Below, one piece after another: positions 4,196 through 47,179 of a stretch of DNA of 64,000 nucleotides. The first letter of the stretch is position 1, and the number at the start of each line of letters is the position of its first letter. The DNA comes from Eledone cirrhosa (lineage: Eukaryota), in NCBI GenBank assembly GCA_964016885.1, contig OZ024743.1:347820001-347884000 (forward strand), in the 5' to 3' direction. The notes under the pieces were generated by a model. The model saw nothing but the letters and a program-made list of their open reading frames with translations. It was not told the DNA's origin and made no database searches. The position numbers and the translations under genes are program-made.

Positions 4196-5321
4196 TTTCT
4201 TTATTAGCCACAAGGGCACAAAAGAAGGGGACAAATACAAATGGGGAGTTTACATACTCAGACTCAGACTCAGAAGCTCACGCGTCTTGCGACGCATGAG
4301 GCAATCATAGTGTTCCACCGCGTTCGGTCAGCAGCCAGTTGCACAGCGTCCCGACATTGTCTGTTTGTCGCTCGCAGGTCCCTCTCAACTGTCTGGCGTC
4401 AGTTCATTTTGGGTCGCCCTCTCCGTCTGCTTCTCTGTGGGTTCCATGTAAGTACTTTATATGAAAATAAAACTATTAATACAATAACAAATAACAATTG
4501 AAATCTCCAATAGGGGGGAGGTGTTACACAGGGGTTGTACACACCCCGAAAAAATATACAACCCTCATCTCCAGGAGCAACAAGAGTGAGTACTCCTTTC
4601 CTCTCTTCCACTTTTTCCTCAACCTACAGGCTTATATATAGAGAAGGCCCAACCCCGCGGGCCATCTTTGCCACATTCACCCACCTTTTATAAAATTTGC
4701 TAGGATACAGCACCTCTCTCTCCATCCTGATTCTTCTTCCAAAATGATATTTGAAAAAACGAATCAGTTGCTCGCCGGAGAGAAAGGTGTCTGACCTGAG
4801 CCCCTTTAACCTCGTCCACCATATAACCTCTTTCACCATAGCCATAACACATAGGAAAACCGCCTCTCCCTCGTTTTTGAAGGAGGGTGGCGGTTTGATC
4901 ATGACAATGGACGACTCGGTGGTCAACTGGATTGGTCCCATCCGCGACAATAGTCGTCTACATAGCCCCACAGGTCGGTAACGCTCGGGCAGTGTACAAA
5001 TACATGTGCGACGGTTTTCTCGTCGCGTACGCATCTCGGACAGATCTTTTTCGAAGGGTTCCCACCCGGGCACCCATGTCTGTAGAGCTTGTCTCGAACT
5101 GGTAGGGGTCCTCGGTAGCACTGCCATGCCAGGGACTTTTGGAAGTTGTCCATTAGTCCCGGGCGGAAGGTCCTATCGAACAGACTGGCCAGTTCGTACT
5201 CCTCTACGCCTAGCGTGTCGTCGCACTTGCTGCGGACCAACCCTCGATAGAATGTTGAAGTGGAGTCTCCACTGATCGCCGGGTCCGTTTGCCAGAGGAT
5301 TCGATATGCCAGTCGCCCATT
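4196..5321 (-). mobile_element. 5'-truncated, decayed copy of the L1/Tx1 LINE (3' end of ORF2 + 3' UTR)
   Basis: Clear similarity to 13510-14475 (..MDNFQKSLAWQCYRG..GPSLYISL), with frameshifts and small deletions. AATAAA then (TATC)/(TC) tail. Confidence 0.95.
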
Positions 5322-5429: not shown

Positions 5430-5469
<40 letters not shown>

Positions 5470-5473
<4 letters not shown>

Positions 5474-5999
5474 CTAAAATAACAGATTAAAGTTTAAGCA
5501 AAGAATCGCTGCTTTCACCCTTAACGGGATCTTCTGAAACTAACAAAGTAAATCTGTAAACGCAGAACTGGATATTTCAAAAAACGTTGCAACCGGAGGA
5601 AGACAGGAAGACGATACTTTGGTTTTTAGGTATGTTTTCCTGTTTGGTACGGGTATGTTCTTTGTAGAAATATTCAGATGTTGTTTCTGCATGATGAATA
5701 TAAGTCAGTAGAGTGCTCAACCGAAGGAGCCAAATAGTAATAATAATAAAATTGAAGACTAAAATCCAAAGAGGGCTCGATAAGGAAAATATATATCAAA
5801 TATATAAGAACCGTAGAGCAAATATTTACTAAAATAACAGATTAAAGTTTAAGCAAAGAATCGCTGCTTTCGCAGCGATTCTGTGCTTAAAATTTAATCT
5901 GTTATTTTAGTAAATATTTGCTCTACGGTTCTTATATATTTGATATATATTTTCCTTATCGAGCCCTCTTTGGATTTTAGTCTTCAATTTTATTATTAT

Positions 6000-6003
<4 letters not shown>
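5470..6003 (-). repeat. 355-bp HHR-containing unit, partial tandem plus fold-back inversion
   Basis: 5470-5516 recurs at 5825-5871. 5872-6003 is the reverse complement of ~5737-5868. Flanked by (TA)n. Confidence 0.8.
5491..5541 (-). ncRNA. Degenerate type I hammerhead (U4>A)
   Basis: agttt-CAGAAGA-t-ccc gttaa ggg-t-GAAA-gcag cgattct ttgc-TT-aaact. Confidence 0.55.
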
Positions 6004-6072
<69 letters not shown>

Positions 6073-7205: not shown

Positions 7206-7650
7206 AGGGTGAAGATACAGATGTTTAGTAATGAAATGAAATAATAAAATAATTATAATTGTAATGGAGTTAAATGTTTTAGCAATTTTCAATAAAACAG
7301 GGTGGTGACTGTCAATTTGATTTAATCTATAACTGTCGCGCTCTTACATATACAAACACATACATATATATGTATATATATATAAACGGAAAAAATTAAA
7401 CGAAATTACATTTCCCACTCTTAGTACGGCTGTTACTTAAATATAAGTATGTATACGTACATACATATATGTATACAGACGTACAGTAGTATGTATATAT
7501 ATATACATACATGCACACATATATATATATGTACCATTGGATTCACCAAACATTTATTATAATGCTCGGTGTGTTTGTAAAGAAACATCCCGTATTAAGC
7601 CACAGTGTCTAGCAACCATCGTTGCTTGTTTCTTCAACACTGACAAAGGA

Positions 7651-7693
7651 ACGCTGTACTAGTTTCAAGCTTAATAGCTATCGTCAGCAACGT
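7651..7693 (-). ncRNA. Minimal type I hammerhead ribozyme
   Basis: acgttg-CTGACGA-t-agct atta agct-t-GAAA-ctag-TA-cagcgt. Confidence 0.85.
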
Positions 7694-7945
7694 ATACCTT
7701 CCTGCCAGATTGTTGAACGTCCGAAAGTATATACTTTCCTTATGCATATTAACGGCTGAGTAGCCCAATTTGCCTATCGAGTGGGTTAATCGGCCGGGTT
7801 CACCGAAAATGATAAACGGAAAAAATGAAACGAAATTTCACTTCCCAGTCTTAGTACAGCTGTTACTGGACTGAATGAACATTTTTATCCTGGTATTTGA
7901 ATAGCCGAGCTTCTCAAGGGAATTCCATATCTGGCAGGAAGGTAT

Positions 7946-7988
7946 ACGTTGCTGACGATAGCTAATAAGCTTGAAACTAGTACAGCAT
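7946..7988 (+). ncRNA. Minimal type I hammerhead ribozyme (inverted copy)
   Basis: cgttg-CTGACGA-t-agct aata agct-t-GAAA-ctag-TA-cagca. Confidence 0.8.
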
Positions 7989-8229
7989 TGCTTTGTCAGT
8001 GTTGAACAAACGAGCAACGGTGGTTGCTAGACACTGCGGCTTAATACGGGATGTTTGTTTACAAACACACTGAGCATTATAATAAATGTTTGGTGAATCC
8101 ATACGTAAGTATATATATGTGCATGTATGTGTGTATATATACATACTACTGTACGTCTGTATACATATATGTATGTACGTATACATACTTATATATATAT
8201 ATATATAAATACACACATAGATATATATA

Positions 8230-8357
<128 letters not shown>

Positions 8358-8449
8358 ACGGAGGAAATGTGGTAAGGAACCAGGTGGACCATAACGCACC
8401 AGGGTACTCAATACTTAGAGTAGTCAAGTGGGTAATAGGAACGAGTAGG

Positions 8450-8545
8450 ACCCCGACGGCTGAGCTCAAGCCGTTTCGACGGCTAATTCTGGACTAAATG
8501 AACATTTTTATCCTGGTATTTGAATAGCCGAGCTTCTCAAGGGGT
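8450..8545 (-). ncRNA. Type I hammerhead with U3-A8 core variant
   Basis: acccc-TTGAGAA-gct cggcta...tagccg tc-GAAA-cggct tgagctc agccg-TC-ggggt. Confidence 0.8.
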
Positions 8546-9627
8546 AATTCCATATATGGTAAAAGTGGTTGTCACAAGGATTGGTCAAAAGTTTGTTGTT
8601 GAGACATAATAATTCTATGATGGCAATTTGTGGAGGGAAGGGGTAGCTGAACCTGCCAGTAGGAGAAAGAGGGAGAGGGGGTGGAGGAGACCCATCCATA
8701 CGTTGATAGTGCCGACTACAGCTGGGTATGAGGTAAAAGAAGATACTAGGGAGGGGGAGGAAGTCGAAACAATAAGTAGAACAATATAGGGTAAACATAT
8801 AGAAAAATACCGTGTTAAAAAGCAATTAAATATAAAAAAAAACAAAACAATTTCTGGTTACTACGACCTAAGTCTCTCACTGGTACTGCTAGGCTAAAGA
8901 AAGGTATACTAGATGGGACGGAATTATAATGAGACCCTTTTAAGAGGTATAACTAATAAACCGAGTTTTACCTTACGGTGACGGGTCAACAAGTGAGGGT
9001 CCAAAATACTAAAGAAACTACCACGAAATAATACATAAAGGATTCTACCCTAGGCACAAGGCCAGCAACCACCCAATGCAAAAAAGTAAACTAATACGAA
9101 ATAATAATTCAGAGTCCCGAGAAATAATACTAATACTATCTCTAAGGGTGCCGCCACGATACAAAAGTTCTAGTGCAAGCTACATAAAAGCTCGTACGAA
9201 GTATATGTAAAATTTGATACGGAAAATTAATTCAGACCCCCCCCCCCCCCCCCAAAAAAAAATACTGATATACGAGAAATTAAAGCAAAGATACCACTAA
9301 GAAATATAGAAAGCACGGAAAAGGGGCAGCGGTCGGATAAGAGGGCAAGTATCCGGGGTCTAACACATCTGCTATAAAAAGCGGAGTCGGCCAAATCTAT
9401 CATAGAATAAGGGAAGGGGTGGGGGTACTGAGGCTACAAAGGACCGAGGGGCTGCCTCGGGTGGGTGAGAAAAAGACGACGACAAAGAAAGAGAACTGGG
9501 GTGGAAGGACCAGGGAGGGATGGGGTAAGAAGGAAATATAGAGGAAGCGATAAAAAGATATAAAAGAAGATCTTACGTCTACCTTTGCAAGCAGGGGCTA
9601 CCCATTACAAAATCGGTAAGTGGGGTG

Positions 9628-10160
9628 TTATAACCCTAGTCTAACCCCTCCCCCCCAAGCGTCATTATGGGGTTTGAGGGCGAGGTAAGTCCTACGCAAT
9701 CTGTGTTTACATGCAGTAACCAGTTCATCTTTCTTGTTTAGGAGTTGGTCCGTCGAAAACAGCATTTGTAAAGTTTCCTCCGAGCATAAATTGCACGGAC
9801 GTCGTCCTCCCGTGTAAGAGATGGCTCTGGACAGTAAGCTCCAAGTGAGATCATAGGTAATGTTGTTATCCTTGAGGTCCCATATGTGGCCCGAAAGTGT
9901 AGTGGCGTGACACCGGGCCGGGTTTCGGAAGTTATGTCTGTGTTGGTATAGCCGGGTCTTGAAGTCACATGCGGTTAATCCTATATAAGCTTTGTTGGAG
10001 GTATCCGTCCTCACGTTGCACTGATAGATCACATTACGATCTCTGCATCTGTTGTCGAGGGGGAAAATGGATCCATCAGGACAGTTGCACCTCCTGGTCT
10101 GCTCTTCACTGCTATTTAGGTTATTTCTTCCATAGGGGTTGAGTTTTGTGTTGTTAGCTC
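9628..10160 (-). pseudogene. PLE GIY-YIG domain (inverted duplicate)
   Basis: CNCPDGSIFPLDNRC..VIY..YIGLTACDFKTRLYQH..CNLCSEE..LLNKKDELVTACKH. Confidence 0.9.
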
Positions 10161-11305
10161 CCGACTCACCCTTCGACGTCAGCATTGGCGCGACGGATTC
10201 GGCTGAGGTCACAGATCTTATAGGATTATTCCTAATAGCCAAACTCACCCATATGTTTCCTGCATTCGGCGGTGGATTGTACCGTGATGATGGGCTCCTT
10301 ACCCTTAAAGGGTACAACCCCAGTAGTACAGATCGGGTCCGTAAACAATTAATCAGCTTCTTCCGCGACTGGGGATTTAAAATAACCCTACAAACGTCCC
10401 TGACCCGAGTAAACTTCCTGGACGTTACCCTTGACGTCGATAATGATCTGTACTACCCATACAGGAAACCTAACGACAACCTGCACTACATCCACCGCCG
10501 GTCAAACCATCCTAGGAACATCACCAATAACCTGGTTAAAAACATCTCCCTCCGCATATCACGTTTGTTAGCTAATGAGCAGATATTCGAGGAACATGCG
10601 CCTTATTACAACCAGGCCCTCAAGCGGAGTGGTTTCCGGGAGGAAATATCCTACTGTCCAGCTTCCATTAGCGCAACCAGCAGACGACACCGCCGCTCAT
10701 GCAATGTAACATGGTTCAATCCTCCCTACAACGCCGAGGTGACAATTCTTATCGGGAAAATCTTCTTTAGGCTCATTGAAAAACACTTCCCACTACAACA
10801 CCGCTACCACAACATAATTAACAAAAACACCATCAAACTCTCTTACAGCACCACACCAAACTTTGCACAAAACATCGTCTCCTCTAACAAAAATAAACTC
10901 AACCCCTATGGAAGAAATAACCTAAATAACAGTGGAGAGCCGACCAGGAGGTGCAACTGTCCTGATGGATCCATTTGCCCCCTCGACAACAGAGGCAGAG
11001 ATTGTAATGTGATCTACCAGTGCAACGTGAGGACGGACACCTCCAAGAAAGCTTATATAGGATTAACCGCATGTGACTTCAAGACCCGGCTATACCAACA
11101 CAGACATAACTTCCGAAACTCGGCCCGGCGTCACGCCACTACACTTTCGGGCCACATATGGGACCTCAAGGATAACAACATTACCTATGATTTGTCGTCG
11201 TCTTCTTCTCGCCCACCCGAGGCAGCCCATCGGTCATTTGTAGCCTCAGTACCCCCACCCCTTCCCTTATTCTATGATAGATTTGGCCGACTCCGCTTTT
11301 TATAG
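10139..11305 (+). pseudogene. PLE RT (C-terminal half) + GIY-YIG endonuclease fragment
   Basis: FDVSIGATDSAEVTDLIG, LYRDDGL, VNFLDVTL, SNHP, WFNPPY, CNC..CPL, YIGLTACDFKTRLYQH. An internal deletion after ~11190 removes the C-terminus. Confidence 0.92.
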
Positions 11306-12080
11306 CAGATGTCTTAGACCCCGGATACTTGCCTTCTTATCCGACCGCTGCCCCTTTTCCGTGCTTTCTATATTTCTTAGTGGTATCTTTGCTGTAATTT
11401 CTCGTATATCAGTATTTATTTTTTTTAGGGGGGGGGGGGGGATTCTTAATTAATTTTCCGTATCAAATTTTACATATACTTCGTACGAGCTGTTATGTAT
11501 CTTGCACTAGAACTTTTGTATCGTGGAGATAGTATTAGTATTATTTTTCGGGACTCTGAATTATTATTTCGTATTAGTTTACTTTTTTGCACTGGGTGGT
11601 TGCTGGCCTTGTGCCTGGGGTAGAAACCTTTATTTATTATTTCGTGGTAGTTTCTTTAGTATTTTGGACCCTCACTTGTTGACCCGTCACCGTAAGGTAA
11701 AACTCGGATTATTACTTATACCTCTTAAAATGGTCTCATTATAATTCCATCCCACCTAGTATACCTTTCTTTAGCCTAGCAGTACCAGTGAGAGACTTAG
11801 GTCGTAGTAACCAGATATTGTTTTTTTTTTTTTTTACATATAATTTCTTTTTAACACTCTCGGTATTTTTCTATATTTTTACCCTATATTGTTTTACTTC
11901 CTCCCCCTCCCTAGTATCTTCTTTGACTGCATGCCCATGAATGGGTCTCCTCCACCCCCTCTTCCTCTTTCTCCTACTGGCAGGTTCAGCTACCACAAAT
12001 TGCCATCATAGAATTTTTATGTCTCAACAACAAACTTTTGACCAATCCTTGTGACAACCACTTTTACCATATATGGAATT

Positions 12081-12176
12081 ACCCCCTGAGAAGCTCGGCT
12101 ATTCAAATACCAGGATAAAAATGTTCATTTAGTGCAGAATTATCCGTCGAAACGGCTTGAGCTCAGCCGTCGGGGT
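12081..12176 (+). ncRNA. Type I hammerhead, copy with C3/A8 mismatch
   Basis: acccc-CTGAGAA-...-GAAA-cggcttgagctcagccg-TC-ggggt; otherwise near-identical to 8450-8545. Confidence 0.65.
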
Positions 12177-12198
12177 CCTACTCGTTCCTATATATATA

Positions 12199-12282
<84 letters not shown>

Positions 12283-12286
12283 TAAA

Positions 12287-12535
12287 TAGGAAACAGTTTA
12301 ACCCCGACGGCAGAGCTCAAGCCGTTTCGACGGATATTTCTGGACTAAATTAGAATTTTTTACCGTGGTTAATAAATAACCGCTAAAAATTCTAATGTAG
12401 TCCAGAAATAGCCGTCGAAACGGCTTCAGCTCTTCCATCGGAGTTAAACTGTTTCCTATTACTCACTCTACTACCTTAAGTATTGAGTACTCTGGTGCGT
12501 TATGGTCCATCTCGTTCCTTACCACACCTCCTTCG

Positions 12536-12540
<5 letters not shown>
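12287..12540. mobile_element. Inverted pair of PLE 3'-terminal fragments (HHR 3' half)
   Basis: ~12287-12360 (-) and ~12385-12540 (+) both match the GAAAcggct..gagctc..TCggggt region. Embedded in (TA)n. Confidence 0.75.
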
Positions 12541-12574
<34 letters not shown>

Positions 12575-12822
12575 TGTGGATCTATGTATATACAACAAAG
12601 AGAAAAATGCTTTCAGATACTGAGAAGCAGATATACAGTGTGAGAGAGAAGAAAAGAGGGTTAGGGATTGATAAATGTAAGTAGGAACGTGTAAAGAAAA
12701 GATAGCCATGAAAATAAGATTAAAAGTACTTGTATAACACGTATACAACGTAGAAACTTATATATCCCTATATATGTCATACACTTACCTAAACATATAT
12801 ACTTACATTCATACATACACTC

Positions 12823-13747: not shown

Positions 13748-16700
13748 CTACAGGCTGATATAGAGAGAAGGCCCATTCACTCGGGCCATTCTCGCCACTT
13801 TCACCCACCTTTCATAAAACTTGCTGGGGTACAGCACCTCTCTCTCCATCCTGATTCTTCTTCCAAAGTGGTATTTGAAAAAAAGAATCAGTTGTTGGCC
13901 GGAGAGAAAGGTGTCTGACCTCAGCCCTTTCAACCTTGTCCACCATACAACCTCTTTCGCCATAGCTATCACACAAAGGAAAACCGCCTCTCCTTCGTTT
14001 TTGAAGGAGGGTGGCGGTTTGATCATGACAATGGACTCGGTGGTCAACTGGATTGGTCCCACCCGCGACAATAGTCGTTCTACATATCCCCACAGGTCAG
14101 TGACGCCCGGGCAGTGTATGAATGCGTGCGCGACGGTTTCTTCGTCTCGCACGCACCTCGGACAGATCTTTTTTGTAGGGTCCCTGCCCGGGCGCCCATG
14201 TCTGTAGAGCTTGTCTCGAACTGGTAGAGCTCCTCGGTAGCACTGCCAGGCCAGGGACTTTTGGAAGTTGTCCATCGGTCCCGGGCGGAAGGTCCTACCG
14301 AACAGACTGGCCAGTTCATCTTCCTCCACGCCCAGAGTTTCACCGAGCGCGTCGTCGCACTTGCTGCGGACCAACCCTCTATAGAATGACGAAGTGGAGT
14401 CTCCACTGATCGCCGGGTCCGCCTGCCAGAGGGCTGTGAGCGCCTGAGCACATTCGATGTGCCAGTCGCCCATTTTCCTCGGTCTCTGCTTGACCCAGGA
14501 CTGCAGCTCGGTCAGTGAGACGAGTCGTGGGAAGGCTCGCCTCACGAACGGGGCCCACACCGGTTGTCCGGTGAGGAATACGTAGAGATGCCGCAGCCTG
14601 AGCGCGTGTTTGCGCATCGTCAACCACGGCATCCCCAGCCCTCCGTTAGAAGGGTGTTGGCAGCAGATGGATCTTCTTACCAAAGGAGCCCGCCTCTTCC
14701 AAAGGAATCGGAAGAGGGCGCGCTCCATTTTGGCGAGCGTTTTGGCTGGACAAGGCACGACGGTCAAGCGGTAGTAGATGGCGGACGCTATAAAAGTGTT
14801 CGCCACCTCCGCTCGACCTTTCAAGGATAGTTTGCACTCGGCCCACTTCTGGGTGAGTGCAAACACCTTGGCCGTCACTTCGTTCCAGTTCTTCTCCACC
14901 TGGAGGTCCGGACCATACCAGGCCCCGAGCAGCTTTACCGGTCCTTCCGTCCAGCGTCCGACGACGCCATCGGAAGGCATCGGTCTGCCTCTCCACGATC
15001 CGAGTTGCAAACCGATGGACTTGTCCCGGTTCAGCTTCGCTCCTGTGAGACTTTCGTATTCCTTTAGTAAGGTGCCGACTTTCTCGATTTGCGAGGCGCT
15101 CGACACCATTACTGTCACGTCGTCGGCGTGGGCCGACGCCGCTTTCCGCAGTCCCGGTTCCAGAGGGATGCCCTGCAATAGCTCCAGCTTCCGCAGTAGT
15201 GGCTCGAGAGTCAGTACGTACAGAAGGGAGGAGAGAGGGCATCCCTGTCGAATGGATCGCGTAATATGGAACGGCTCCGAGAGGTAACCGTTCACCTTGA
15301 CCCTTGAGCAGATGTTGCTGTTGTGCATTGCAGCAATCCAGCCCCTGAACACGGGTCCGAAGCCTGCCGCCTCGAGCACCGCATCCAGGTAACGATGGTC
15401 AACCCTATCGAAAGCCTTAGACTGATCCAAGTTGATCAGGGCCCCACCGAAGCCGGGTTTACACCCTACCCTCTTTATGATGTATCGCATGAGGTGGAGG
15501 TTGTCGTGTATGGACCTGGTCGGGATCGCGCATGTCTGCGCTTCTCCCACCAGGTTCTCGACGACAAGCGCCAGCCTCTTTGCCAACACCTTGGCCAAAA
15601 TCTGTAACTCTGTGCTTAGCAGAGTTATGGGCCGGAAGTTGCCTATGTCATCCCCCTTATTCTCGTCCTTCCTGATTAGTGTGACCACGCCCCCGGTTAC
15701 AGAATTGGGAATTCTCCCGTTCTGTTGCCAGTTGCAGTAGACCGCTTCCAGGAGACCGGAGAATAAGTCCGGCATTGCTACGTAAAATTCGTAGGGTAGA
15801 CCGTCGAGACCTGGAGATTTGCGTTTGCCGCAATGGCTCAGCGCGTCCCCTATCTCAGTGGCTGAAATCGGCTTTTCGCAGAACTTCGCCTCGCTGTCCG
15901 AGAGTCGCGGTAGGCCGTCGAGGTATGGACCGAAATCCATAGCCTCTCCCGGCGCGCCGCTCCCCCCGAACAGCCGAGCAAAGTGCCGCTGAAAAGCCGC
16001 ACACATCTGCTTCGGCTCACGTATCACGCGTCCGTTTTGGTCCTTCAAAGACCGAATCGTGGACTTGTTGCCACTTTTTGCCTCCGTCACTCGGGCCCAG
16101 CTAACAGCTTTGGCTCCCTCGTTTCCCAGAGCACGTATTTTCCTTCTGACAACGCAGCCCTCGTGCTTTGCGTCGAAGAACTGGTCCAAGGCCGTTCTCG
16201 TTGCTAGCACGCTGGCTACGTTGCCACTTCTAATAGCCTCTTCTACTTTATCTACCAGTTCCTTCTCGGTTCTATTTCTATCTAACGCTAATTCTTTACT
16301 AAAAACTATCGAGTCTAATCTAACTGCCCTCCTGAGAGAGTACCACCATCTGTTGTTGACAATGGCCCCTGTCAAGTGCTGTTTAACTAAAGTGCTAATC
16401 CGTCTACTGTAGGCTTTGCTTGTCGGTAACGACAAGTTCAGCTTCCAGTAGCCGGGTCCTTGTCTATGGGTTCTATCAAGGTTGGCCATGCAGGTCACTA
16501 GTTTGTGATCTGAATAGGCAACCATGAACATTTGTGGACAGCTTAACATGTCCCTATCCTTATTTCTAACTAGAACCCTATCTAGGTACGATCTAGATGT
16601 TCCGCTACGATTACTCCACGTCCACAGTGGCGCAGTCGGAAAATCTAGTCGATATCTATCGGCCAGGTCAAATCGGTCGATTAACTGTTTGAGGCTGTTA

Positions 16701-17185
16701 CACCCCCCTTTATCGGGACATGCTCCCACATAGTCCCAACGTGCATCTAGGATTCCATTCCAGTCCCCCACTAAAAGCAAGGAGCGGGACGTTCCCAGAA
16801 AAGTCTCTAGACGTTTGAAGAAGTCTGGCCGCGGTGTCCCGGATGGGGCATATGCGGCCACCAGCCTGAACGCTCCACTTTCACTACCGTCAACGTCTAG
16901 GACCACCAGTCGACCCTCCGGGTCCAGATGTACCGTCTGTGTTACGAGGCCCAGGTGTTTCCGCAGCAAAACGGAAACTCCGCCCCCACCCCCCGGTTGA
17001 CAGAGAGATGCGTAGATCTCAAAGTCATCGAAGATGGGGGCCAGCTGTCGCTCGCCGTGGATCCTGGACTCGCAAATGGCTACCACATCCAAACTGTGCG
17101 ACCTGAGGTCGTTTAAGAGTTTGCCCTGTTTCCAGGGCATCCCCAGGCCGCGTACGTTCACACATCCAACTCTTATATTGGCCAT
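13748..17185 (-). CDS. LINE ORF2: APE endonuclease + reverse transcriptase + C-terminal Cys/His finger
   Basis: NVRGL, GDWN, SYLDRVL, SDH (APE); KSPGLDG, FRPITLL, LDQSKAFDRVDH, IRQGCPLS, HADD (RT); CPRC..ETVAHAFIHC. 1145 aa, uninterrupted. Confidence 0.96.
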   Translation of the reverse strand: MANIRVGCVNVRGLGMPWKQGKLLNDLRSHSLDVVAICESRIHGERQLAPIFDDFEIYASLCQPGGGGGVSVLLRKHLGLVTQTVHLDPEGRLVVLDVDGSESGAFRLVAAYAPSGTPRPDFFKRLETFLGTSRSLLLVGDWNGILDARWDYVGACPDKGGCNSLKQLIDRFDLADRYRLDFPTAPLWTWSNRSGTSRSYLDRVLVRNKDRDMLSCPQMFMVAYSDHKLVTCMANLDRTHRQGPGYWKLNLSLPTSKAYSRRISTLVKQHLTGAIVNNRWWYSLRRAVRLDSIVFSKELALDRNRTEKELVDKVEEAIRSGNVASVLATRTALDQFFDAKHEGCVVRRKIRALGNEGAKAVSWARVTEAKSGNKSTIRSLKDQNGRVIREPKQMCAAFQRHFARLFGGSGAPGEAMDFGPYLDGLPRLSDSEAKFCEKPISATEIGDALSHCGKRKSPGLDGLPYEFYVAMPDLFSGLLEAVYCNWQQNGRIPNSVTGGVVTLIRKDENKGDDIGNFRPITLLSTELQILAKVLAKRLALVVENLVGEAQTCAIPTRSIHDNLHLMRYIIKRVGCKPGFGGALINLDQSKAFDRVDHRYLDAVLEAAGFGPVFRGWIAAMHNSNICSRVKVNGYLSEPFHITRSIRQGCPLSSLLYVLTLEPLLRKLELLQGIPLEPGLRKAASAHADDVTVMVSSASQIEKVGTLLKEYESLTGAKLNRDKSIGLQLGSWRGRPMPSDGVVGRWTEGPVKLLGAWYGPDLQVEKNWNEVTAKVFALTQKWAECKLSLKGRAEVANTFIASAIYYRLTVVPCPAKTLAKMERALFRFLWKRRAPLVRRSICCQHPSNGGLGMPWLTMRKHALRLRHLYVFLTGQPVWAPFVRRAFPRLVSLTELQSWVKQRPRKMGDWHIECAQALTALWQADPAISGDSTSSFYRGLVRSKCDDALGETLGVEEDELASLFGRTFRPGPMDNFQKSLAWQCYRGALPVRDKLYRHGRPGRDPTKKICPRCVRDEETVAHAFIHCPGVTDLWGYVERLLSRVGPIQLTTESIVMIKPPPSFKNEGEAVFLCVIAMAKEVVWWTRLKGLRSDTFLSGQQLILFFKYHFGRRIRMEREVLYPSKFYERWVKVARMARVNGPSLYISL

Positions 17186-17218
17186 GTTGGTGCTGAAAAG
17201 TTAAAAGAGGAAAAGAGA

Positions 17219-19030
17219 TCACTCACCCTTCGCCTCCTGGGGACCAGGCCGCACGATTTCCATGGGGGTGTTGGAGGGGTTGTCTGGATGGGTGGTGGTT
17301 TCCGGCGGGGTGGGGACGCAGATGTTTGGTGGGGTGGGGTCTGGTGGGATGGGGGTGTCTGGGGTGGGGAGGCATTTGAGAAGGACGCGGTTGAGTGGTT
17401 TCACGCAGGAATTCCCCACATCCTTCTCAAATGTTTCTTTTAGGGACCTATAAGTTTGTATAGGGACCCTAATCAGTTTTAGGTTCATTTTTTTGCTATT
17501 TTTTATAGAGTGGGCGAAAGTTTTCCCTTCGGTGAAAACCGAAGGGTCGTTCGTAATGGTCTCCATTAGTGTTTTGTTTTCAGTGTTTATGTAAGTGTAA
17601 GTGTAATTTTCTTGTGTTGTGTTTGTTTTTGTCTGTAGTTCTTGTGTGTGCTTTCGTTTTGTTGTAGGTATTTTGTTTTCAGGAGGTGGGGGTTTTGTTT
17701 GTGATATTTTTGTTGTTTGTGTTGGTGGTTGTATGTTTGTGGTAGTGTTTGCTGGTTTTTTGCTTTTGTGATGTCTTTTCTTTCTTTTCGAGCGATGGGG
17801 TTCTCCCTCGTCTTCACTGGGTGATGGCGAGATAGCCTCATCTGTTGTATCGTCTGTGTGATTGGGGAGGGGTATGTCTTGGGGAGCTGTTGTGTCTGTA
17901 TGTGATTTTGCAGTGGTTTTAGGTGGAGTGAGGTTGGGTGGGACTGTGTTTGTTGTGGTTATTTTTGTGTGTTGGTGTTGTTGTTGTAGTGGTGGTGTTG
18001 GTGGTTGTGTTGTTTTGATGGGTGTTGGCAGAAGAGCCTTTTTTTGGTTCATTAGTTTAGGACAGGAAGCCCTCAGGTGACCCCTGCTAAAGCAATGGTA
18101 ACATGAAGGCCGCCTACCCTCAACCGAAAGGTTTATGTAGGTAAGTCCGTCCAGGAGTACACGCTGTGGGATCATAGCTATTCGCTCTGGGCTCATTTGC
18201 ACCAGAACTTCAATGCTAGTCCCATTGAATACATCTCTGGGGGACTTGCCTACTGACAGTATTCTGTCTTCATCAAAATTGATGAAGCCGCACAGTATCC
18301 ACCATATGTTCACCTTTGGTGTGACACTTGTGATTCTGATCTTTTGTGTCCTTTTTCCCATGTATGTAGGGAAAAAGGTGTACAGGTTGGATACAATTGG
18401 CGACACAGAGTAATTTTGGGCCGTCAATTGATCCTTCATCAGTACCGAAATACTCCCAAAAAGTTTGCTTCTTTGAATGAATGCAATATCATTCATTGAA
18501 TCTTTGAAAACCAGTTCAATATCTTTCTGTGACAATTGGACTGGTTTTCGGGTAGAATTGGAAACTGTCCTAAAAACTATCGTTTTGAGAGCAGTTTCCT
18601 TGCGAATTTCTACCGGAGAATTGATGCTGAAAGCACCATTTTTTTCGAAGGTGACATATCTCTTAGCGTCCTTTAAAATGTGTTCAGCATTTGTTATGTC
18701 GAGATATATCAATTGTTCTTTCTTTTGAACTTTCTCCGCAAAGGAGATTTTTGGTTTCTTTGTGGAATCCGTATTGGTGGTGTTGTCATTATTGTTGTTA
18801 TTCTTGTTGTTATTCTTGTTGTCACCGATGTTGGTATCATCCGTATTTTCCTTGGTGTTGTTGTTGTCTTTGATGCTGGTGTTATTGGCGTTGTCTTTAT
18901 TTTTTTCTTTGTTGTTGTTATCATTGTTGCTTTTATCATCATTATTGGATTTGCTGTTATTTTTGTTGTCATTGAGCTGTTTGGTGTCATTTGTGTTGTT
19001 TGGATGTGAATTCGTTTTTTTTATTTTCAT
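17219..19030 (-). CDS. LINE ORF1 nucleic-acid-binding protein
   Basis: Immediately upstream of ORF2. Single CCHC knuckle CYHCFSRGHLRASC, Asn-rich N-terminus, Pro/Thr-rich C-terminus. 603 aa. Confidence 0.88.
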   Translation of the reverse strand: MKIKKTNSHPNNTNDTKQLNDNKNNSKSNNDDKSNNDNNNKEKNKDNANNTSIKDNNNTKENTDDTNIGDNKNNNKNNNNNDNTTNTDSTKKPKISFAEKVQKKEQLIYLDITNAEHILKDAKRYVTFEKNGAFSINSPVEIRKETALKTIVFRTVSNSTRKPVQLSQKDIELVFKDSMNDIAFIQRSKLFGSISVLMKDQLTAQNYSVSPIVSNLYTFFPTYMGKRTQKIRITSVTPKVNIWWILCGFINFDEDRILSVGKSPRDVFNGTSIEVLVQMSPERIAMIPQRVLLDGLTYINLSVEGRRPSCYHCFSRGHLRASCPKLMNQKKALLPTPIKTTQPPTPPLQQQHQHTKITTTNTVPPNLTPPKTTAKSHTDTTAPQDIPLPNHTDDTTDEAISPSPSEDEGEPHRSKRKKRHHKSKKPANTTTNIQPPTQTTKISQTKPPPPENKIPTTKRKHTQELQTKTNTTQENYTYTYINTENKTLMETITNDPSVFTEGKTFAHSIKNSKKMNLKLIRVPIQTYRSLKETFEKDVGNSCVKPLNRVLLKCLPTPDTPIPPDPTPPNICVPTPPETTTHPDNPSNTPMEIVRPGPQEAKGE

Positions 19031-19574
19031 TTTGTCTTTCCATCTCTATAGTATCTAGTGAAGAAGACGTTGTTGACTGCGAGCTTTGTAGTCTTACCGC
19101 CTCTCCACCACCATTATCGTTGGACGCAGCGTTCATAACGTAATCAAAATTTTACAATATTTTTTCCAAGATTCGATGGAGAAAAATTTTTTAAATGGAT
19201 ATTCCGCCCCTGAAGGGGCGAAAATGAGTTGACCCACCACCTGAAGGTCCAGACGGGTGGTCAAGTTACACAATGATATAAAATTGAACTAAAAACTCAC
19301 GTTTTTTCCTTACATAAATTAACGGAAACTTCTCCGCGAAGTGACACACGACTGATAGAGAGATAGATAGATAGATAGATAGATAGATATACAATATATA
19401 TATAATCGTGCTCACCCGGGTCAATCTGCAGTAACTCCGCGTTACACTCCCTGTATATATATATATAAGTATTAAGTTGTTAAACAATATTCGATGATTA
19501 TGTCAAAGAAAGGGTTTTACAGTAGATTGGAACCATCAACGAAAAAAAAATAATTTTCAGGAGTTATTAATATT

Positions 19575-20555: not shown

Positions 20556-20610
<55 letters not shown>

Positions 20611-20679
20611 AACGAGTGGGACCCCGACGGCTGAGCTCAAGCCGTTTCGACGGCTAATTCATATACATGTATGTGAATG

Positions 20680-23600
20680 CCGATTCCAACCATCCCCACT
20701 CAATACTAAATGCAATTATTAAAGGCGTATCTAATAGGATTAGTCGTTTATCTTGTAACGAAGACATTTTTAACTCAAATGTTGAATATTATAACGATGC
20801 ACTAGCAAAATCCGGGTATAGGAATAACCTATATTACATACCTACTAGCCTATTAGCTCCCAATCCACCCATGCTGGACCTAATAGTATAATTACGCACA
20901 ATATGTCATTGAATAATAATAGTAATAAAAATAGGACTAGGGATAAAAGCCCTACGGTGATTGGTACGGCCTGGCACCGACAGAATGGCCCTGTTTTGCA
21001 TCCTCCCCATATTCCTTCTGGTGACATTAATAGCGGTATGATGAGATCTAGAATCTCTACGCATCGTGGTGTTATTAATGGGAGTAGTGAGCAAAATAAT
21101 GCGGGAGTTTCACAGCAGGTATATCCTGGCAATAATATTGACGGCGGTAAGGGTAATGGTAGTTCTAACATTAACCTGGATCTGTGGGGAAAAATAGAAA
21201 AAATAGAAGAAGACTGAACACATACTTTAACCCACCCTACAACTCTGAAGTCTTAACTAACATACCCAAAACATTCTTCTTAATCCTAGAAAAGAATTTC
21301 CCACCTGGCAGTAGATACCATAGTATAATTAAATAAAAATACGATTATATTATCTTACTCCATTACCCAAAATTTGGCCTACCACCTAGCACGCACTAAT
21401 AATAGGAAAATTAGGGTAGGGTTCTACACAATCAAATCTGTAAATGACTACCAACAACCTTACACATTGGGAAATGAGGTTCCTGAGTTTGGTAGCAACA
21501 CCTCGGTAGAACATATACCATATCGGGAAGGTTTTACCAACCGGCCCTCCCAGGACACGAACAGCAACACACAGCAACATTGTATTTGTAGATGGAGTGA
21601 AAATTGCCCTTTGAAGGGCAATTGCCTCACGAGAAGCATAGTTTATGCATGTGATGTTGTAACGGCAACCTCCACCAAAACATATGTGGGCTCTACTTCT
21701 ACATCATTTAAGACTAGATACAACTCCCACAAATATACATTGAGCTACGATAGGCTCAAGAATGCCACCTCCCTAGCTAAATATGTTGACTTTTTAAAAA
21801 ATGATAGTATCGATTATACCCTTAATTGGAGATTGGTGACTAAATCTACGCCCTACTGCCTCCCTAGCAAAACTTGTAACCTGTGCCTTCTAGAGTCTCC
21901 CGCCATAATATATACTAGATGTAACCTGCTCAATAGGAAATCAGAGATATTTACTTCTTGTATACACATGAATCTTAATTCCTTTTACCACTTTTAGCTA
22001 ATTAATTAGATCTGCCGAGGAATCACTCCTCCCTATTCAGTACCCCTGTAGCACACTCTTAACTTTACGCCTCATTATTCCTATTTCCTTAACCAACTAT
22101 CTTCCCCTCCTGTGGACCTCCCTCGGTATGTAAGTTTGTATGACAATGGGGCCTTCTGTTCCATTGCATTTACATGTTGCCTGATAATCCGTTGGTCTCT
22201 TCTGTGCCCAGACCACGGTACGAATGTCTAAATTCCCAGGGGTGACCACCATGAGACCTTGACTTCGTGGCTTCCCTATAGCCACCGTGGTTGGGTAATA
22301 AGACAACCCATCAGCCCCAACTCGAGGGTTACTGGTGTGTGTGAGTGTACGCCTTGCCCTAGTTTGAGCTACAGATTTATATTTATTTTGTTGAATTTTT
22401 GGTCCCGGATCGTTAGCATAACGTCCTAAGTATTGTCCCGCCTTGATGGCGAATGATACTGTATCGTATATGGCAGCCCATTGCTATTACGAGGAAGGTA
22501 ATTCAACTACTCGCCCTATCTAGCTTAGTCCCACAGACCGATATGGGCATATATGGTTCAATTGTTTGACCCTCCCTACTACGAGAGATGCGTGCACTGC
22601 CCGCTCCCCATACTTGGTAATGGATGCAGTTCGTACCGGGTATGGTGACACCGTGCTTGCACCTCAGAAGTATTAGAGATCCCTTTACCGTAGAACCTAT
22701 ATGTTATACTATCTGTTTGAACCCTACCCGTTTGAATACTCCCCATAATAGAATAAGTAAAGATATCCTTGGGCTCATTGACATATCATAAGGTAACCGC
22801 GATTCAATAGTCTTTAGTATGACAAGCTTGACTATTCTGGAGGTCCAATAATAATTAATAATTATATAGTTTTTATTTTTACGAATCTTGTTGAATTAGT
22901 ATTGTTATTCTGTTGGTGATTACAATTTTGGTGGTGGTTAGAATTAAATAGCCTTATAGATGACACGTTAGAGTAGACCCCTTTCTCTACCACTGTAACG
23001 TCATTACTTGGTGACTGAAGGGAGTAACACCCCGTATGTATCTTCTGCGTCATGAATTGATGTGTATATACCCATAGCGGTGACGAACGAAGTAGCGTGT
23101 GTTTATTTTTTATGGAGCCGAATTCCTAAATTTCCGCGGGGTATGTAAGCTGTCTTATATAATTTTTTTATGCCTGTATGACTCCACCTAACAGACATAC
23201 TGGGTACCTGGTGGATTTAATGATTTGAGCACTTTGTGTTATTTTCTGTTTTGTATAGATTGTTAACCACGTGCTGTATGAGTTTGGTCAACGGTGAACC
23301 ACTGCTGCACTTACCCTCGCATTATTTTGACGTGTTCGCGGCTGGATTAGGTGTGACGAATTTGGTTGTACAGAATCTGGAGCTGCAACTTGAACACATT
23401 GTACTTCACGGTCTGGGATTTTAAACATGCGGAGATTTTTTGATGTGTAAATTCAGCCTGTAATACATGTTACTATATGTGATGATATGTTTTGGTGAGC
23501 GTATGAATCCGACTGGATTGCACTTTACGGACGATCTACATATGTTCCAAACTCTGGACCGAATTACTATCTACGGACAATCCACTATCTTTATAACTCA

Positions 23601-24160: not shown

Positions 24161-24483
24161 ATGTATATATTTATATATATATAAATTGAAACAAAATGAA
24201 AACGAAATTTCATTTCTCACTCTTAGTATGGCACTTACTTAAATGTAAGTATGCATGTATACGTACATACATATATGTATACAGACGTACAGTAGCATGC
24301 ACATATATATATATATATACATATATACATACATATGCATACAGGTACACATACATATATGCACGTATCAGTTTAGCGGCGCTAACGTCGCTTTGTTCGT
24401 TTGTAAACAAACTGAACAGCCTGAATTTATGCCATACGGTGTTAAGGCAACCACGTCACCTTTTTGTTCAACACTGACACAGG

Positions 24484-24528
24484 AACGATGTACTAGTTTC
24501 AAGCTTGTTAGCTATCATCAGCACCGTT
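24484..24528 (-). ncRNA. Minimal type I hammerhead (unit 1)
   Basis: aacggtg-CTGATGA-t-agct aaca agct-t-GAAA-ctag-TA-catcgtt. Confidence 0.9.
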
Positions 24529-24951
24529 TACCCATCTGCCAGATAGTTGAACGTTCGAAAGTATATACTTTCCTTATGAAAATTAACGGCTGAGCAGCCT
24601 AATTTGCATATTGAGTGAGTTAAATCGGTCAGGCATACCGAAAACGATAAATTGAAACAAAATGAAAACGAAATTTCATTTCTCACTCTTAGTATGGCAC
24701 TTACTTAAATGTAAGTATGCATGTATACGTACATACATATATGTATACAGACGTACAGTAGCATGCACATATATATATATATATATACATATATACATAC
24801 ATATGCATACAGGTACACATACATATATGCACGTATCAGTTTAGCGGCGCTAACGTCGCTTTGTTCGTTTGTAAACAAACTGAACAGCCTGAATTTATGC
24901 CATACGGTGTTAAGGCAACCACGTCACCTTTTTGTTCAACACTGACACAGG

Positions 24952-24996
24952 AACGATGTACTAGTTTCAAGCTTGTTAGCTATCATCAGCACCGTT
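24952..24996 (-). ncRNA. Minimal type I hammerhead (unit 2)
   Basis: Identical to unit 1. Confidence 0.9.
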
Positions 24997-25417
24997 TACC
25001 CATCTGCCAGATAGTTGAACGTTCGAAAGTATATACTTTCCTTATGAAAATTAACGGCTGAGCAGCCTAATTTGCATATTGAGTGAGTTAAATCGGTCAG
25101 GCATACCGAAAACGATAAATTGAAACAAAATGAAAACGAAATTTCATTTCTCACTCTTAGTATGGCACTTACTTAAATGTAAGTATGCATGTATACGTAC
25201 ATACATATATGTATACAGACGTACAGTAGCATGCACATATATATATATATATACATATATACATACATATGCATACAGGTACACATACATATATGCACGT
25301 ATCAGTTTAGCGGCGCTAACGTCGCTTTGTTCGTTTGTAAACAAACTGAACAGCCTGAATTTATGCCATACGGTGTTAAGGCAACCACGTCACCTTTTTG
25401 TTCAACACTGACACAGG

Positions 25418-25462
25418 AACGATGTACTAGTTTCAAGCTTGTTAGCTATCATCAGCACCGTT
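25418..25462 (-). ncRNA. Minimal type I hammerhead (unit 3)
   Basis: Identical to unit 1. Confidence 0.9.
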
Positions 25463-25675
25463 TACCCATCTGCCAGATAGTTGAACGTTCGAAAGTATAT
25501 ACTTTCCTTATGAAAATTAACGGCTGAGCAGCCTAATTTGCATATTGAGTGAGTTAAATCGGTCAGGCATACCGAAAACGATAAATTGAAACATATGCAA
25601 ATTAGGCTGCTCAGCCGTTAATTTTCATAAGGAAAGTATATACTTTCGAACGTTCAACTATCTGGCAGATGGGTA

Positions 25676-25720
25676 AACGGTGCTGATGATAGCTAACAAG
25701 CTTGAAACTAGTACATCGTT
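25676..25720 (+). ncRNA. Minimal type I hammerhead (inverted unit)
   Basis: aacggtgCTGATGAtagctaacaagcttGAAActagTAcatcgtt read directly on the + strand. Confidence 0.9.
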
Positions 25721-25956
25721 CCTGTGTCAGTGTTGAACAAAAAGGTGACGTGGTTGCCTTAACACCGTATGGCATAAATTCAGGCTGTTCAGTTTGTTTA
25801 CAAACGAACAAAGCGACGTTAGCGCCGCTAAACTGATACGTGCATATATGTATGTGTACCTGTATGCATATGTATGTATATATGTATATATATATATATA
25901 TGTGCATGCTACTGTACGTCTGTATACATATATGTATGTACGTATACATGCATACT

Positions 25957-25999
<43 letters not shown>

Positions 26000-26640: not shown

Positions 26641-26667
26641 GTTTGTATGTATATATATATGTATATA

Positions 26668-27433
26668 TATAATCAAGGTTTAGCAAATAAGAAAAAGTTT
26701 TAAAATAAATTTTAAAAAGTTTACTGTACCTGCTGTAATTACCCTTACCGCGCGGTTCAAGTCTCAAAATAAATGGATAATCTATGCGGAAATATTGAGA
26801 AGAAGACTTTCGTCAGAGGGTTTTTCTCACTCGGAGAACATAAAATTCCCGAGTTCAAATCACGAACTGGCGCCATACAGAACTCTTCCCGAGATGAGAG
26901 TGTATGATGAAGAAATAATTTTGTTTAGTGCCGTGTGTAAAGGTAGAAGGCAGGGGCGGAAACGTCAATGTACTGCCATTAGAAATAGCAGCTGTTAAAA
27001 TCACCAAAATGTTATCTCGACCAGGGGGGATTAATAATAATAAAGTATGTTTCCCTACATGCAAAATGCATATAGGTATACATGTATTATCCAACTGTAT
27101 GCCAATGTGGTTCTATGGCAGATTAATAAATTAACGAGCCAGAACATATATAATCATGGTTTAGCAAATAAGAAATGGTTTTAAATTAAATTTTAAAAAG
27201 TTCACTGTACCTGCTGTAATTACCCTTACCGCGCGGTTTCAAGTCTCAAAATAAATGGATAATCCAAGCGGAAATTCATTGAGAAGAAGACTTTCGTCAG
27301 AGGGTTTTCCTCACTCGGAGAATATAAAATTCCCGAGTTCAAATCACCAACTGACGCCATACAGAACTATTCACGAGATGAGAGTGTATGATGCAGAAAC
27401 AATTGTGTCTAGTGCCGTGTGTAAAGATAGAAG
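26668..27433 (-). repeat. 481-bp HHR-containing unit, ~1.6 tandem copies
   Basis: aatca(a/t)ggtttagcaaataag at 26671 and 27152; (TA)n flanks. Confidence 0.9.
27222..27305 (-). ncRNA. Type I hammerhead ribozyme
   Basis: accct-CTGACGA-aagtct...agactt-GAAA-ccgcgcgg-TA-agggt. The copy at 26741-26821 lacks one A of GAAA. Confidence 0.9.
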
Positions 27434-27800
27434 ATATATATATATATATTAGTATATAAATACATATACAAATAATATATTTATATGTGGGTGGTGGTCT
27501 GTCTGTATGTGCGTGCGTGTGAGTGTGTGCGTTTGTGTGTGTGTCCATATGTATGTGTATGTTTATGACATTCATAATTTATCTGAAAATTCGTTTATTC
27601 ACGAGGTGTTATTAGGTAACCACTCTGTGTCCCCGGGAAAGATATTAAATTTACAGAACTATTTAAAAAGCTGTTTTTTGTATCTCTGGTAAACTAAGAA
27701 AAATGTGGAGACATTGTTATTGCTATATATTTTACACTGGAAATTACATCATACAGCGTATTTTTACCTTTATTACATATCTTGGGTGGAAGCAGATTTT

Positions 27801-27986
27801 AATTGTTTCTACTTTTCGCACAAGGCCAGCAATTATCCCAGTGTATTACTGCTACTTTATTTTATCGACCCCGTAAGTTTGAAATGCAAAGTTAACTTGG
27901 GCGGGATTTGAACTCACACCATAAAGGGCCGTAACTGTTGGCTGCAAAGCATGGCATCAGTCCCTCTACCGATACTGCCAATCCAC
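27801..27986 (-). mobile_element. Octopod-type tRNA-derived SINE
   Basis: rc of ggattggcagtatcggtaga..gagttcaaatcccgcc..ttaactttgc..ggggtcgataaaataaagta. Confidence 0.85.

Positions 27987-32855: not shown

Positions 32856-32892
<37 letters not shown>

Positions 32893-32901
<9 letters not shown>

Positions 32902-43900: not shown

Positions 43901-43986
<86 letters not shown>

Positions 43987-43994
<8 letters not shown>

Positions 43995-44957: not shown

Positions 44958-45004
<47 letters not shown>

Positions 45005-46707: not shown

Positions 46708-46773
<66 letters not shown>

Positions 46774-47140: not shown

Positions 47141-47179
<39 letters not shown>

What the first reader, a model, noticed from the sequence alone, without database searches (positions are those of the whole stretch)
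7866..7930. Template-switch filler links the retrozyme-like repeat to a Penelope element
Seen: the junction between the direct and inverted arms is filled by ~65 bp (ctggactgaatgaacatttttatcctggtatttgaatagccgagcttctcaaggg..ccatat). This is nearly identical to 8489-8555, the HHR region of the neighbouring PLE. Inference: one RT jumped between the non-coding RNA and the PLE RNA or cDNA during integration, pointing to a PLE as the trans-mobiliser, which has been proposed for animal retrozymes but rarely seen directly.
Basis: partly seen in the sequence, partly recalled or inferred. Interest (0 to 1): 0.72.

Follow-up and report, generated by a model that had tools for sequence, protein, structure and literature searches.

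The report
One-off Penelope patch inside retrozyme
A 65-base piece of a Penelope-type jumping gene sits at the joint between the two mirror-image halves of a small ribozyme-bearing repeat; it was likely copied from the Penelope element about 300 bases away while the halves were being joined, so on its own it does not show which enzyme moved the repeat.

Summary
The filler is real. 7866-7930 differs from 8489-8555 by one substitution and one 2-nt gap; the longest exact word is 47 nt, against at most 16 in 200 shuffles. The donor is part of a U3-A8 hammerhead motif in the neighbouring Penelope-like element (PLE). Both filler ends show imperfect homology (8-9 of 12; 6 of 8), and the entry site is the only 9/12 match within 2 kb. 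The filler looks like a one-off: 1 of 15 inverted junctions in the window has one, and no listed read joint or loose end repeats it (most rows hidden). Repeat and PLE share no other detectable sequence. Best reading (0.5): local templated insertion from the neighbour during arm joining. RT switching onto a PLE RNA from elsewhere stays open (0.3), because the retrozyme arms look older than the PLE arms (6.5% vs 4.1%, p=0.07). Read support for the junction is untested. The head-to-head, TA-targeted, two-fixed-end layout is better evidence for PLE-type mobilisation than the filler. That link is already proposed in print, and this scan noted it at other loci of this genome.

The parts
7382..7867 (-). 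Retrozyme-like repeat, left arm: one 430-nt unit plus 56 nt; outer end runs into a TA tract
   Evidence: 7382-7437 repeats at 7812-7867 (51 of 56); 78% identity to the 467-nt array at 24181
7651..7693 (-). Minimal type I hammerhead motif (C3-G8 core, 14-nt stem II region, 4-nt palindromic stem III); predicted cut after 7657
   Evidence: pattern scan, position; no Rfam match
7856..7867 (+). Left-junction imperfect homology with PLE 8479-8490: 8 of 12 as it reads now, 9 of 12 with the base of the other unit copy
   Evidence: the other base is in the 7428 copy, in the young copy and in 57% of X1 contig depth at 7858
7866..7930 (-). Filler: copy of PLE 8489-8555 (stem I 5' strand, core, 5' side and loop of stem II, in PLE sense)
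7929..7936 (+). Right-junction imperfect homology with PLE 8554-8561 (6 of 8; 2 nt exact)
7929..8197 (+). Retrozyme-like repeat, right (inverted) arm with a second hammerhead motif (core at 7952, predicted cut after 7982; stem I carries a private change at 7987)
8198..8356 (.). TA-rich microsatellite separating the retrozyme and PLE insertions
8357..10157 (-). Neighbouring PLE, left arm: GIY-YIG end of the ORF (9628-10157) and about 1.3 kb of terminal non-coding sequence
8447..8545 (-). PLE hammerhead motif, U3-A8 core variant; predicted cut after 8455
   Evidence: stem II pairs covary in the 72%-identical copy at 57203-57316; U3-A8 core known from Schistosoma PLEs (PMC4209133)
8489..8555 (+). 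Closest match to the filler (likely donor), 291 bp from the right arm's outer end
10158..12191 (+). Neighbouring PLE, right arm: 5'-truncated RT, CxC linker, GIY-YIG with an internal deletion, terminal repeat (second, more distant match to the filler at 12071-12137)
24181..25964 (.). Young relative of the same retrozyme family: 3 near-identical units plus an inverted arm, no filler (control)

Best explanation
The filler is a 65-nt copy of Penelope terminal sequence joined by imperfect homology at both ends, and it was likely copied from the neighbouring element while two retrozyme cDNA arms were being joined at a break in a TA microsatellite. Shown by sequence: head-to-head arms, TA context, fixed outer ends, direct orientation of the donor, homology at both junctions. 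Inferred steps: (1) a PLE-type enzyme cut the TA tract and primed cDNA from both ends on a circular or multimeric retrozyme RNA (the left arm runs through the predicted cut site and is longer than one unit); (2) the left cDNA 3' end was released and paired at the best nearby site on the exposed strand of the right flank (8479-8490); (3) RT or a host polymerase added about 65 nt; (4) the new end re-paired with the right-arm cDNA through 6 of 8 bases and was sealed. A nascent RNA of the neighbour has the same polarity and cannot be told apart from its DNA as template.
For: The entry site is the only 9-of-12 match among 7,956 positions within 2 kb of the insertion, both strands, and among 1,789 positions of the PLE left arm. 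The donor is 291 bp away, 160 bp of it TA-rich, in the direct orientation expected when one broken end copies the other (PMC7165422, passages). The filler equals the neighbour at all 4 listed family-variable positions, where 46-84% of laid depth or reads agree per site (joint chance 0.17-0.48). It is the only long foreign filler among 15 inverted structures examined, and the young family copy has none. Two longer short inserts at other copies' joints (13 and 16 nt) match the repeat's own sequence over 8 and 9 nt, versus at most 7 nt in PLE regions (weak). There is no repeat-PLE similarity outside the filler (best E 0.5). Genomic-DNA templated inserts are described at L1 junctions (22 cases in a set of about 3,600 insertions; 3 cases).
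Against: Order: retrozyme arms differ at 21 of 325 columns (6.5%), PLE arms at 53 of 1,301 (4.1%); Fisher p=0.07. With flat priors the chance that the PLE pair is the more diverged is 0.03-0.06. Taken at face value, the neighbour was not yet there. The distance and length are atypical: L1 templates lie within 15 bp of the site, and Pol theta inserts are 3-30 bp, typically from within 30 bp. No base in the 65 nt is private to the neighbour, so it is not proven to be the donor. The 9/12 score uses an inferred earlier base, and the 12-nt window was the best of five tried. The entry site is equally the best site on a PLE RNA. In cultured cells, two-RNA inserts (9) outnumbered local-DNA inserts (3) for L1.
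Confidence: 0.5

Rival explanations
1. One reading: the RT left the retrozyme RNA and continued on a PLE RNA from elsewhere in the genome (possibly its own message), entering at an internal homologous site beside the stem II loop; the neighbouring PLE is a coincidence of shared TA targeting.
For: The retrozyme arms look older than the PLE arms. The filler has the polarity that continued left-arm synthesis on PLE sense RNA would give (one of two possible polarities, so weak). PLE-family ends lie beside TA tracts at 8 separate insertions in this window, 3 of them at least 98% like the neighbour, so adjacency is not rare. Two-RNA inserts are documented for L1. The PLE RT starts at internal RNA sites and extends both DNA strands in vitro (PMC11167929).
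Against: Single case. No shared sequence between repeat and PLE, different hammerhead types, and different spacing of the two fixed ends (59-64 vs 78 nt). A rotifer study saw no cross-mobilisation between its two PLE types (PMC3846280, passage). Entry is 34 nt from the predicted cut, not at an RNA end. At least two other PLE families lie in the same window. One substitution in 65 is a little low for this model (P of at most 1 = 0.14 at 5.3%).
Confidence: 0.3
2. Later repair: both insertions were in place, a break occurred between the inverted arms, and synthesis-dependent end joining patched it with sequence from the neighbour.
For: Needs no particular order of insertion; fits the low filler-donor divergence (1 of 65) and homology at both ends.
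Against: Needs a second rare event exactly at the junction. A 218-nt spacer and 6% arm divergence make a cruciform unlikely (general knowledge, not tested).
Confidence: 0.1
3. The filler was already part of the RNA: a chimeric source element or a ligated retrozyme-PLE RNA.
For: Ligation of two RNAs before reverse transcription is described for U6-L1 chimeras (mentioned in PMC11702581).
Against: Listed loose ends at 7867 and 7920 continue as pure retrozyme and pure PLE, and the filler's base at 7873 is absent from X1 and X2 contigs and from all but at most 1 of 256 X13 reads. The filler ends are not ribozyme ends. Only the best-supported rows were shown.
Confidence: 0.05
4. Assembly artefact (chimeric read or consensus).
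For: No listed contig or read spans the junction; the best run holds only 0.40 of the sampled words.
Against: The filler has its own substitution and gap relative to both PLE arms, and the retrozyme arms differ by 6%, unlike a fold-back read. The runs need not be from the same individual, and 19,673 pieces were not shown.
Confidence: 0.03

Closest known systems
Templated insertions at L1 integration junctions (bioRxiv 10.1101/2024.08.27.596794; PMC11702581; passages read)
   Same: Short (<250 bp) foreign segment at an internal junction of a retrotransposon insertion with opposed cDNA arms; proposed release of cDNA and pairing with nearby DNA
   Different: Here the insertion is a hammerhead repeat with PLE-type ends; the donor is 291 bp away rather than within 15 bp; germline, not tumour or cell line
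Two-RNA template-switch insertions of L1 (PMC11702581, passages)
   Same: Two sources in one insertion, same polarity as one arm, microhomology at the switch
   Different: No RNA hallmark here, and an equally good DNA donor lies next door
Metazoan non-LTR retrozymes (PMC7229834, passages; bioRxiv 10.64898/2026.07.22.740005, parts 1-3 of 5)
   Same: Non-coding tandem unit with a type I hammerhead motif; PLEs proposed as mobiliser from co-occurrence and pLTR homology
   Different: This unit shows no homology to the neighbouring PLE's terminal repeat; neither paper, in the parts read, describes chimeric junctions
Canonical EN+ Penelope-like elements (PMC8557442, PMC4209133, PMC3846280, passages; PMC11167929, parts 1-2 of 4)
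   Same: RT plus C-terminal GIY-YIG, inverted 5'-truncated copy, two alternative outer ends, hammerhead in the terminal repeat, AT-rich targets, U3-A8 core variant
   Different: The two ends are 78 nt apart versus the 30-40-nt tail described; stem II is long; clade not tested
Polymerase theta templated insertions (PMC7165422, passages)
   Same: Direct-repeat class, short homology at entry and exit
   Different: 61-65 nt from 291 bp away, versus 3-30 nt typically from within 30 bp

Membership tests
Non-LTR retrozyme | Type I hammerhead motif in each unit | tested here: met
   Pattern scan finds it in both arms and in all 4 units or arms of the young copy; Rfam gives no hammerhead match
Non-LTR retrozyme | Short non-coding unit in tandem copies | tested here: met
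   Unit 430 nt here (1.13 copies) and 466-468 nt x3 at 24181; no ORF of 150 aa or more outside simple repeats; above the 170-400 nt of PMC7229834, within the 51-972 bp of the 2026 preprint
Non-LTR retrozyme | Expressed, self-cleaving, circular RNA | not testable with these tools
   No RNA holder listed; no assay possible
Non-LTR retrozyme (as pLTR derivative) | Homology to the terminal repeat of its partner PLE | tested here: not met
   No match better than E 0.5 to the neighbour or to three other PLE regions of the window; PLEs outside the window untested
EN+ Penelope-like element (neighbour) | RT followed by C-terminal GIY-YIG endonuclease | tested here: met
   Motifs read from the translation and alignment; 70 homologues, best 43% over 97%; Pfam gave no family, so the domain names rest on recalled motifs
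EN+ Penelope-like element (neighbour) | Inverted 5'-truncated copy, two alternative outer ends, hammerhead in the terminal repeat | tested here: met
EN+ Penelope-like element (neighbour) | Intact ORF able to act in trans | tested here: not met
   RT is 5'-truncated and the right arm's endonuclease has an internal deletion; this copy cannot be the enzyme source
EN+ Penelope-like element (neighbour) | Clade (Neptune, Nematis, Poseidon, Hydra) | not tested
   A CxC linker is present, described for Neptune and Nematis; no reference tree built
L1-type local templated insertion | Template under 250 bp, joined by short homology | tested here: met
   61-65 nt; 8-9 of 12 and 6 of 8
L1-type local templated insertion | Template within about 15 bp of the insertion site | tested here: not met
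   291 bp
L1-type local templated insertion | Donor present before the insertion | tested here: inconclusive
   Arm divergence leans against it (6.5% vs 4.1%, p=0.07-0.12)
Pol theta templated insertion | 3-30 nt, typically from within 30 bp | tested here: not met
RT template-switch chimera | Second template entered at an RNA end (end-to-end jump; recalled from R2 and U6-L1 work) | tested here: not met
   Filler starts 34 nt from the predicted cut, and 54 and 132 nt from the two fixed PLE ends; an internal switch remains possible
RT template-switch chimera | RNA hallmark in the filler (splice junction, clustered editing) | tested here: inconclusive
   One transition only, U-to-C on PLE sense
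RT template-switch chimera | Recurs at loci with no neighbouring donor | tested here: inconclusive
   Only this one among 15 inverted structures in the window; no whole genome held; read tables truncated

The most novel reading that the evidence does not exclude
A Penelope reverse transcriptase was caught mid-integration leaving a retrozyme RNA and continuing on a PLE RNA at the hammerhead stem II loop: a junction-level record of both RNAs at one integration complex, naming this U3-A8 hammerhead PLE family as the retrozyme's partner although the two share no sequence.
Probability: 0.3. Interest if true: 0.62.

Novelty: new member of a known kind. Interest (0 to 1): 0.3.

Why it matters
Which enzyme moves animal retrozymes is proposed (PLEs) but rests on co-occurrence and pLTR homology in the papers read. 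A class of PLE-RNA fillers would be direct genomic evidence and would name the partner family, as chimeric junctions do for L1. One filler beside its likely DNA donor cannot carry that claim. Its value is a cheap, decisive survey: sort all fillers by whether a donor lies nearby. If local, it shows that PLE-type two-ended integration is finished by homology-guided patching, as for L1.

Tried and rejected
Whole-genome survey: no genome is held for this window. Junction read support: one search listed no spanning piece, but showed 24 pieces (19,673 hidden), 15 joints (85 hidden) and 24 loose ends (696 hidden), in runs that need not be the source individual; this is neither support nor refutation, and no closer look at the junction was obtained. 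Expression: no RNA holder listed. Rfam: one tRNA at gathering level; 66 sub-threshold hits in 7300-12600, mostly miRNA hairpin models on TA tracts and palindromes, no hammerhead. Pfam: no family for the four PLE frames among 6 proteins scanned. Unconstrained folding does not recover the hammerheads (z between -1.5 and +0.3 for 6 of 6). The strict pattern scan missed both motifs; the relaxed scan was written after I had seen them, so it is not an independent discovery. Idea that the left arm stopped against the second primer: it stops at offset 53-55 and the right arm starts at 59-64, but the young copy stops at offset 11, so 1 of 2; left as a weak lead. Idea that the arms came from already different units: polarised changes split 9 vs 4-5, p=0.27-0.42, neither shown nor excluded. 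The inserts AACA and TCAATC look like family sequence missing from my reference in that orientation, not fillers. Filler polarity was rejected as evidence, since either polarity fits one arm. Proximity alone was rejected as decisive, since both main models must accept the adjacency. Literature: searches listed no paper describing a retrozyme-PLE chimeric junction; the library lacks most subscription papers, and the 2026 preprint's supplements were not seen. Earlier-finding searches near this locus, by sequence and by words returned nothing on fillers.

Full report
Observation. The sequence at 7866-7930 matches 8489-8555 in direct orientation with one substitution and one 2-nt gap, and matches the same element's far arm (12137-12071) with three substitutions and the gap. 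The longest exact shared word is 47 nt; 200 shuffles reach at most 16. Two bases at each end fit either partner, so 61-65 nt are foreign.

Anatomy. The window is animal DNA rich in microsatellites. Named protein relatives include Argonauta and Octopus entries, and earlier notes call the genome octopod (not checked). Three two-armed insertions follow one another, separated by TA tracts: the repeat (7382-8197), a PLE (8357-12191) and a small PLE-family pair (12285-12536). Each is head-to-head with 3' ends outward. The repeat's left arm is one 430-nt unit plus 56 nt and runs through its predicted ribozyme cut; the right arm is 269 nt. Both carry a minimal type I hammerhead motif with a palindromic 4-nt stem III. 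A young relative at 24181-25964 has three near-identical units (0 substitutions between neighbours), an inverted arm and no filler. The family is abundant: 6,999, 6,201 and 6,132 contigs and 34,410 reads were laid on 395 bp (not a copy number). The neighbour encodes a 5'-truncated RT, a CxC linker and a GIY-YIG domain (names from recalled motifs, Pfam silent). Its terminal region holds a hammerhead motif with a U3-A8 core and a long stem II that covaries in a 72%-identical copy. That core variant is described for Schistosoma PLEs (PMC4209133, passages). The filler covers the 5' strand of stem I, the core, and the 5' side and loop of stem II; it begins 34 nt from the predicted cut.

PLE-type mobilisation does not depend on the filler. 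In both copies of the repeat, one arm ends at a first fixed site and the other about 60 nt further in (59-64 nt here). PLE-family pieces likewise end at two sites 78 nt apart. Inverted truncated copies, an optional tail and microsatellite targets are PLE hallmarks (PMC8557442, passages), and a PLE protein cleaves and extends both strands from two internal RNA sites in vitro (PMC11167929, parts 1-2 of 4). PLEs as retrozyme mobilisers were proposed in 2020 (PMC7229834, passages) and argued from co-occurrence and pLTR homology in 2026 (10.64898/2026.07.22.740005, parts 1-3 of 5, supplements not seen). This scan already noted the same layout at 8 listed loci of this genome (AI notes, not independent support).

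How the filler was joined. The last 12 nt of the left arm match the 12 nt at 8479-8490 at 8 positions, or 9 with the base found in the other unit copy, the young copy and 57% of X1 depth. With that base it is the only such site among 1,789 positions of the PLE arm and among 7,956 positions within 2 kb on both strands. Over 64 kb there are 39 such sites in 127,978 positions, so the match singles out a place only if the search was confined to a nearby molecule. At the right end, the PLE continuation matches the arm start at 6 of 8 (0.3% of positions). Both windows were picked as the best of five or six lengths, so the true significance is several-fold lower. A homology-guided switch out and back is well supported. 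The sequence does not say whether the template was DNA or RNA.

For local copying. The donor is 291 bp from the right arm, 160 bp of it TA-rich, in direct orientation, as expected when one broken end copies the exposed strand of the other (PMC7165422, passages). The filler equals the neighbour at four family-variable positions listed; a random family member would do so with probability 0.17-0.48. Only 1 of 15 inverted structures examined has a long foreign filler; spacers under 12 nt were not searched, three longer ones (19-29 nt) had no match, one 86-nt spacer had only a low-complexity hit, and not all 15 are retro-insertions. In one search the listed loose ends at both filler borders continue as pure repeat or pure PLE, and the filler's private base at 7873 is absent from X1 and X2 and from all but at most 1 of 256 X13 reads, so a spread chimeric subfamily is unlikely. 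Repeat and neighbour share nothing else detectable (best E 0.5) and differ in hammerhead type and end spacing. At least two other PLE families lie in the window, and a rotifer study found no cross-mobilisation between its PLE types (PMC3846280, passage). DNA-templated inserts at L1 junctions are documented: 22 cases in tumours (10.1101/2024.08.27.596794, passages) and 3 in cell lines (PMC11702581, passages).

Against local copying. The retrozyme arms differ at 21 of 325 columns and the PLE arms at 53 of 1,301 (p=0.07; 0.12 with gaps). With flat priors the PLE pair is the more diverged with probability 0.03-0.06. The arms share rare bases (8036, 8091), so they come from one source. They may still have been copied from adjacent units that already differed; the 9 vs 4-5 split of polarised changes leans that way without significance. 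Published local templates are nearer and, for Pol theta, shorter. No base in the filler is private to the neighbour. PLE-family ends sit beside TA tracts at 8 insertions in this window, 3 of them at least 98% like the neighbour, so adjacency is cheap. In cell lines, two-RNA L1 inserts (9) outnumbered local ones (3). The probabilities are my judgement from these counts, not a computed posterior.

What is open. Read support for the junction: one search listed no spanning piece, but most rows were hidden and the best run holds 0.40 of the words, so it need not be the source individual. The filler's own changes and the 6% arm divergence argue against an assembly artefact. No whole genome was available, so the decisive family-wide survey was not run.

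Verdict. A real, apparently single templated insertion at the inversion junction of a retrozyme-like repeat, of a kind known from L1. It likely records local patching (0.5), possibly an RT jump onto PLE RNA (0.3) or later repair (0.1). It does not by itself identify the mobiliser. Searches listed no paper on retrozyme-PLE chimeric junctions, within a library that lacks most subscription journals. Interest 0.3; 0.62 if a survey shows donor-free PLE fillers.

Noticed in passing
window 53439-53547: A small two-armed PLE-family insertion whose plus-sense arm begins within 0-2 nt of the predicted hammerhead cut (first base 53450; 1 of 6 window copies of that stretch). It looks like cDNA running off the 5' end of a self-cleaved RNA, a hint that the U3-A8 motif cuts in vivo.
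   Followed up: partly
window 46713-47188 and 52972-53250: A TA-flanked, head-to-head repeat family whose 5' part is a tRNA-like sequence (46990-47061; Rfam 45.4 bits; ARAGORN calls it Ser-GGA). Candidate tRNA-derived SINE with a PLE-type insertion layout.
   Followed up: no
window 5467-6005, 26665-27433, 32887-33686, 43985-44961, 37499-37620: Further non-coding repeat families: a 355-nt unit plus inverted arm (5467), direct repeats spaced 481 and about 614 nt (26665, 32887), and a two-ended inverted pair (43985). Hammerhead motifs with long stem II at 27222-27305 and 37499-37620. Several unrelated retrozyme-like families may share this window.
   Followed up: no
window 1806, 6888, 20660, 26641, 12360: Inner truncation points of five short PLE-family arms fall at positions equivalent to 8480-8510, across hammerhead stem II; the stub at 20606-20660 stops at the base where the filler starts (8489). 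Possible RT pause region.
   Followed up: partly
window 7382 and 8357: The first fixed ends of the old retrozyme copy and of the PLE share a 6-nt motif before the TA tract; the young retrozyme copy lacks it, so it may be chance.
   Followed up: partly
window 13748-19045 (minus): A two-ORF non-LTR retrotransposon with open frames of 1,150 aa (endonuclease, RT, zf-RVT) and 608 aa; degraded relatives at 4544-5298 and 40263-41736.
   Followed up: no
window 61622-63838 (minus) and 21329-21997 (plus): Two further PLE families; the first has a 738-aa open frame covering RT and GIY-YIG and is a candidate source of enzyme.
   Followed up: no
window 27794-27986, 29589, 31041, 36629, 42204, 45225, 47834, 57440, 58877: A dispersed repeat of about 190 nt in nine or more copies, SINE-like.
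   Followed up: no
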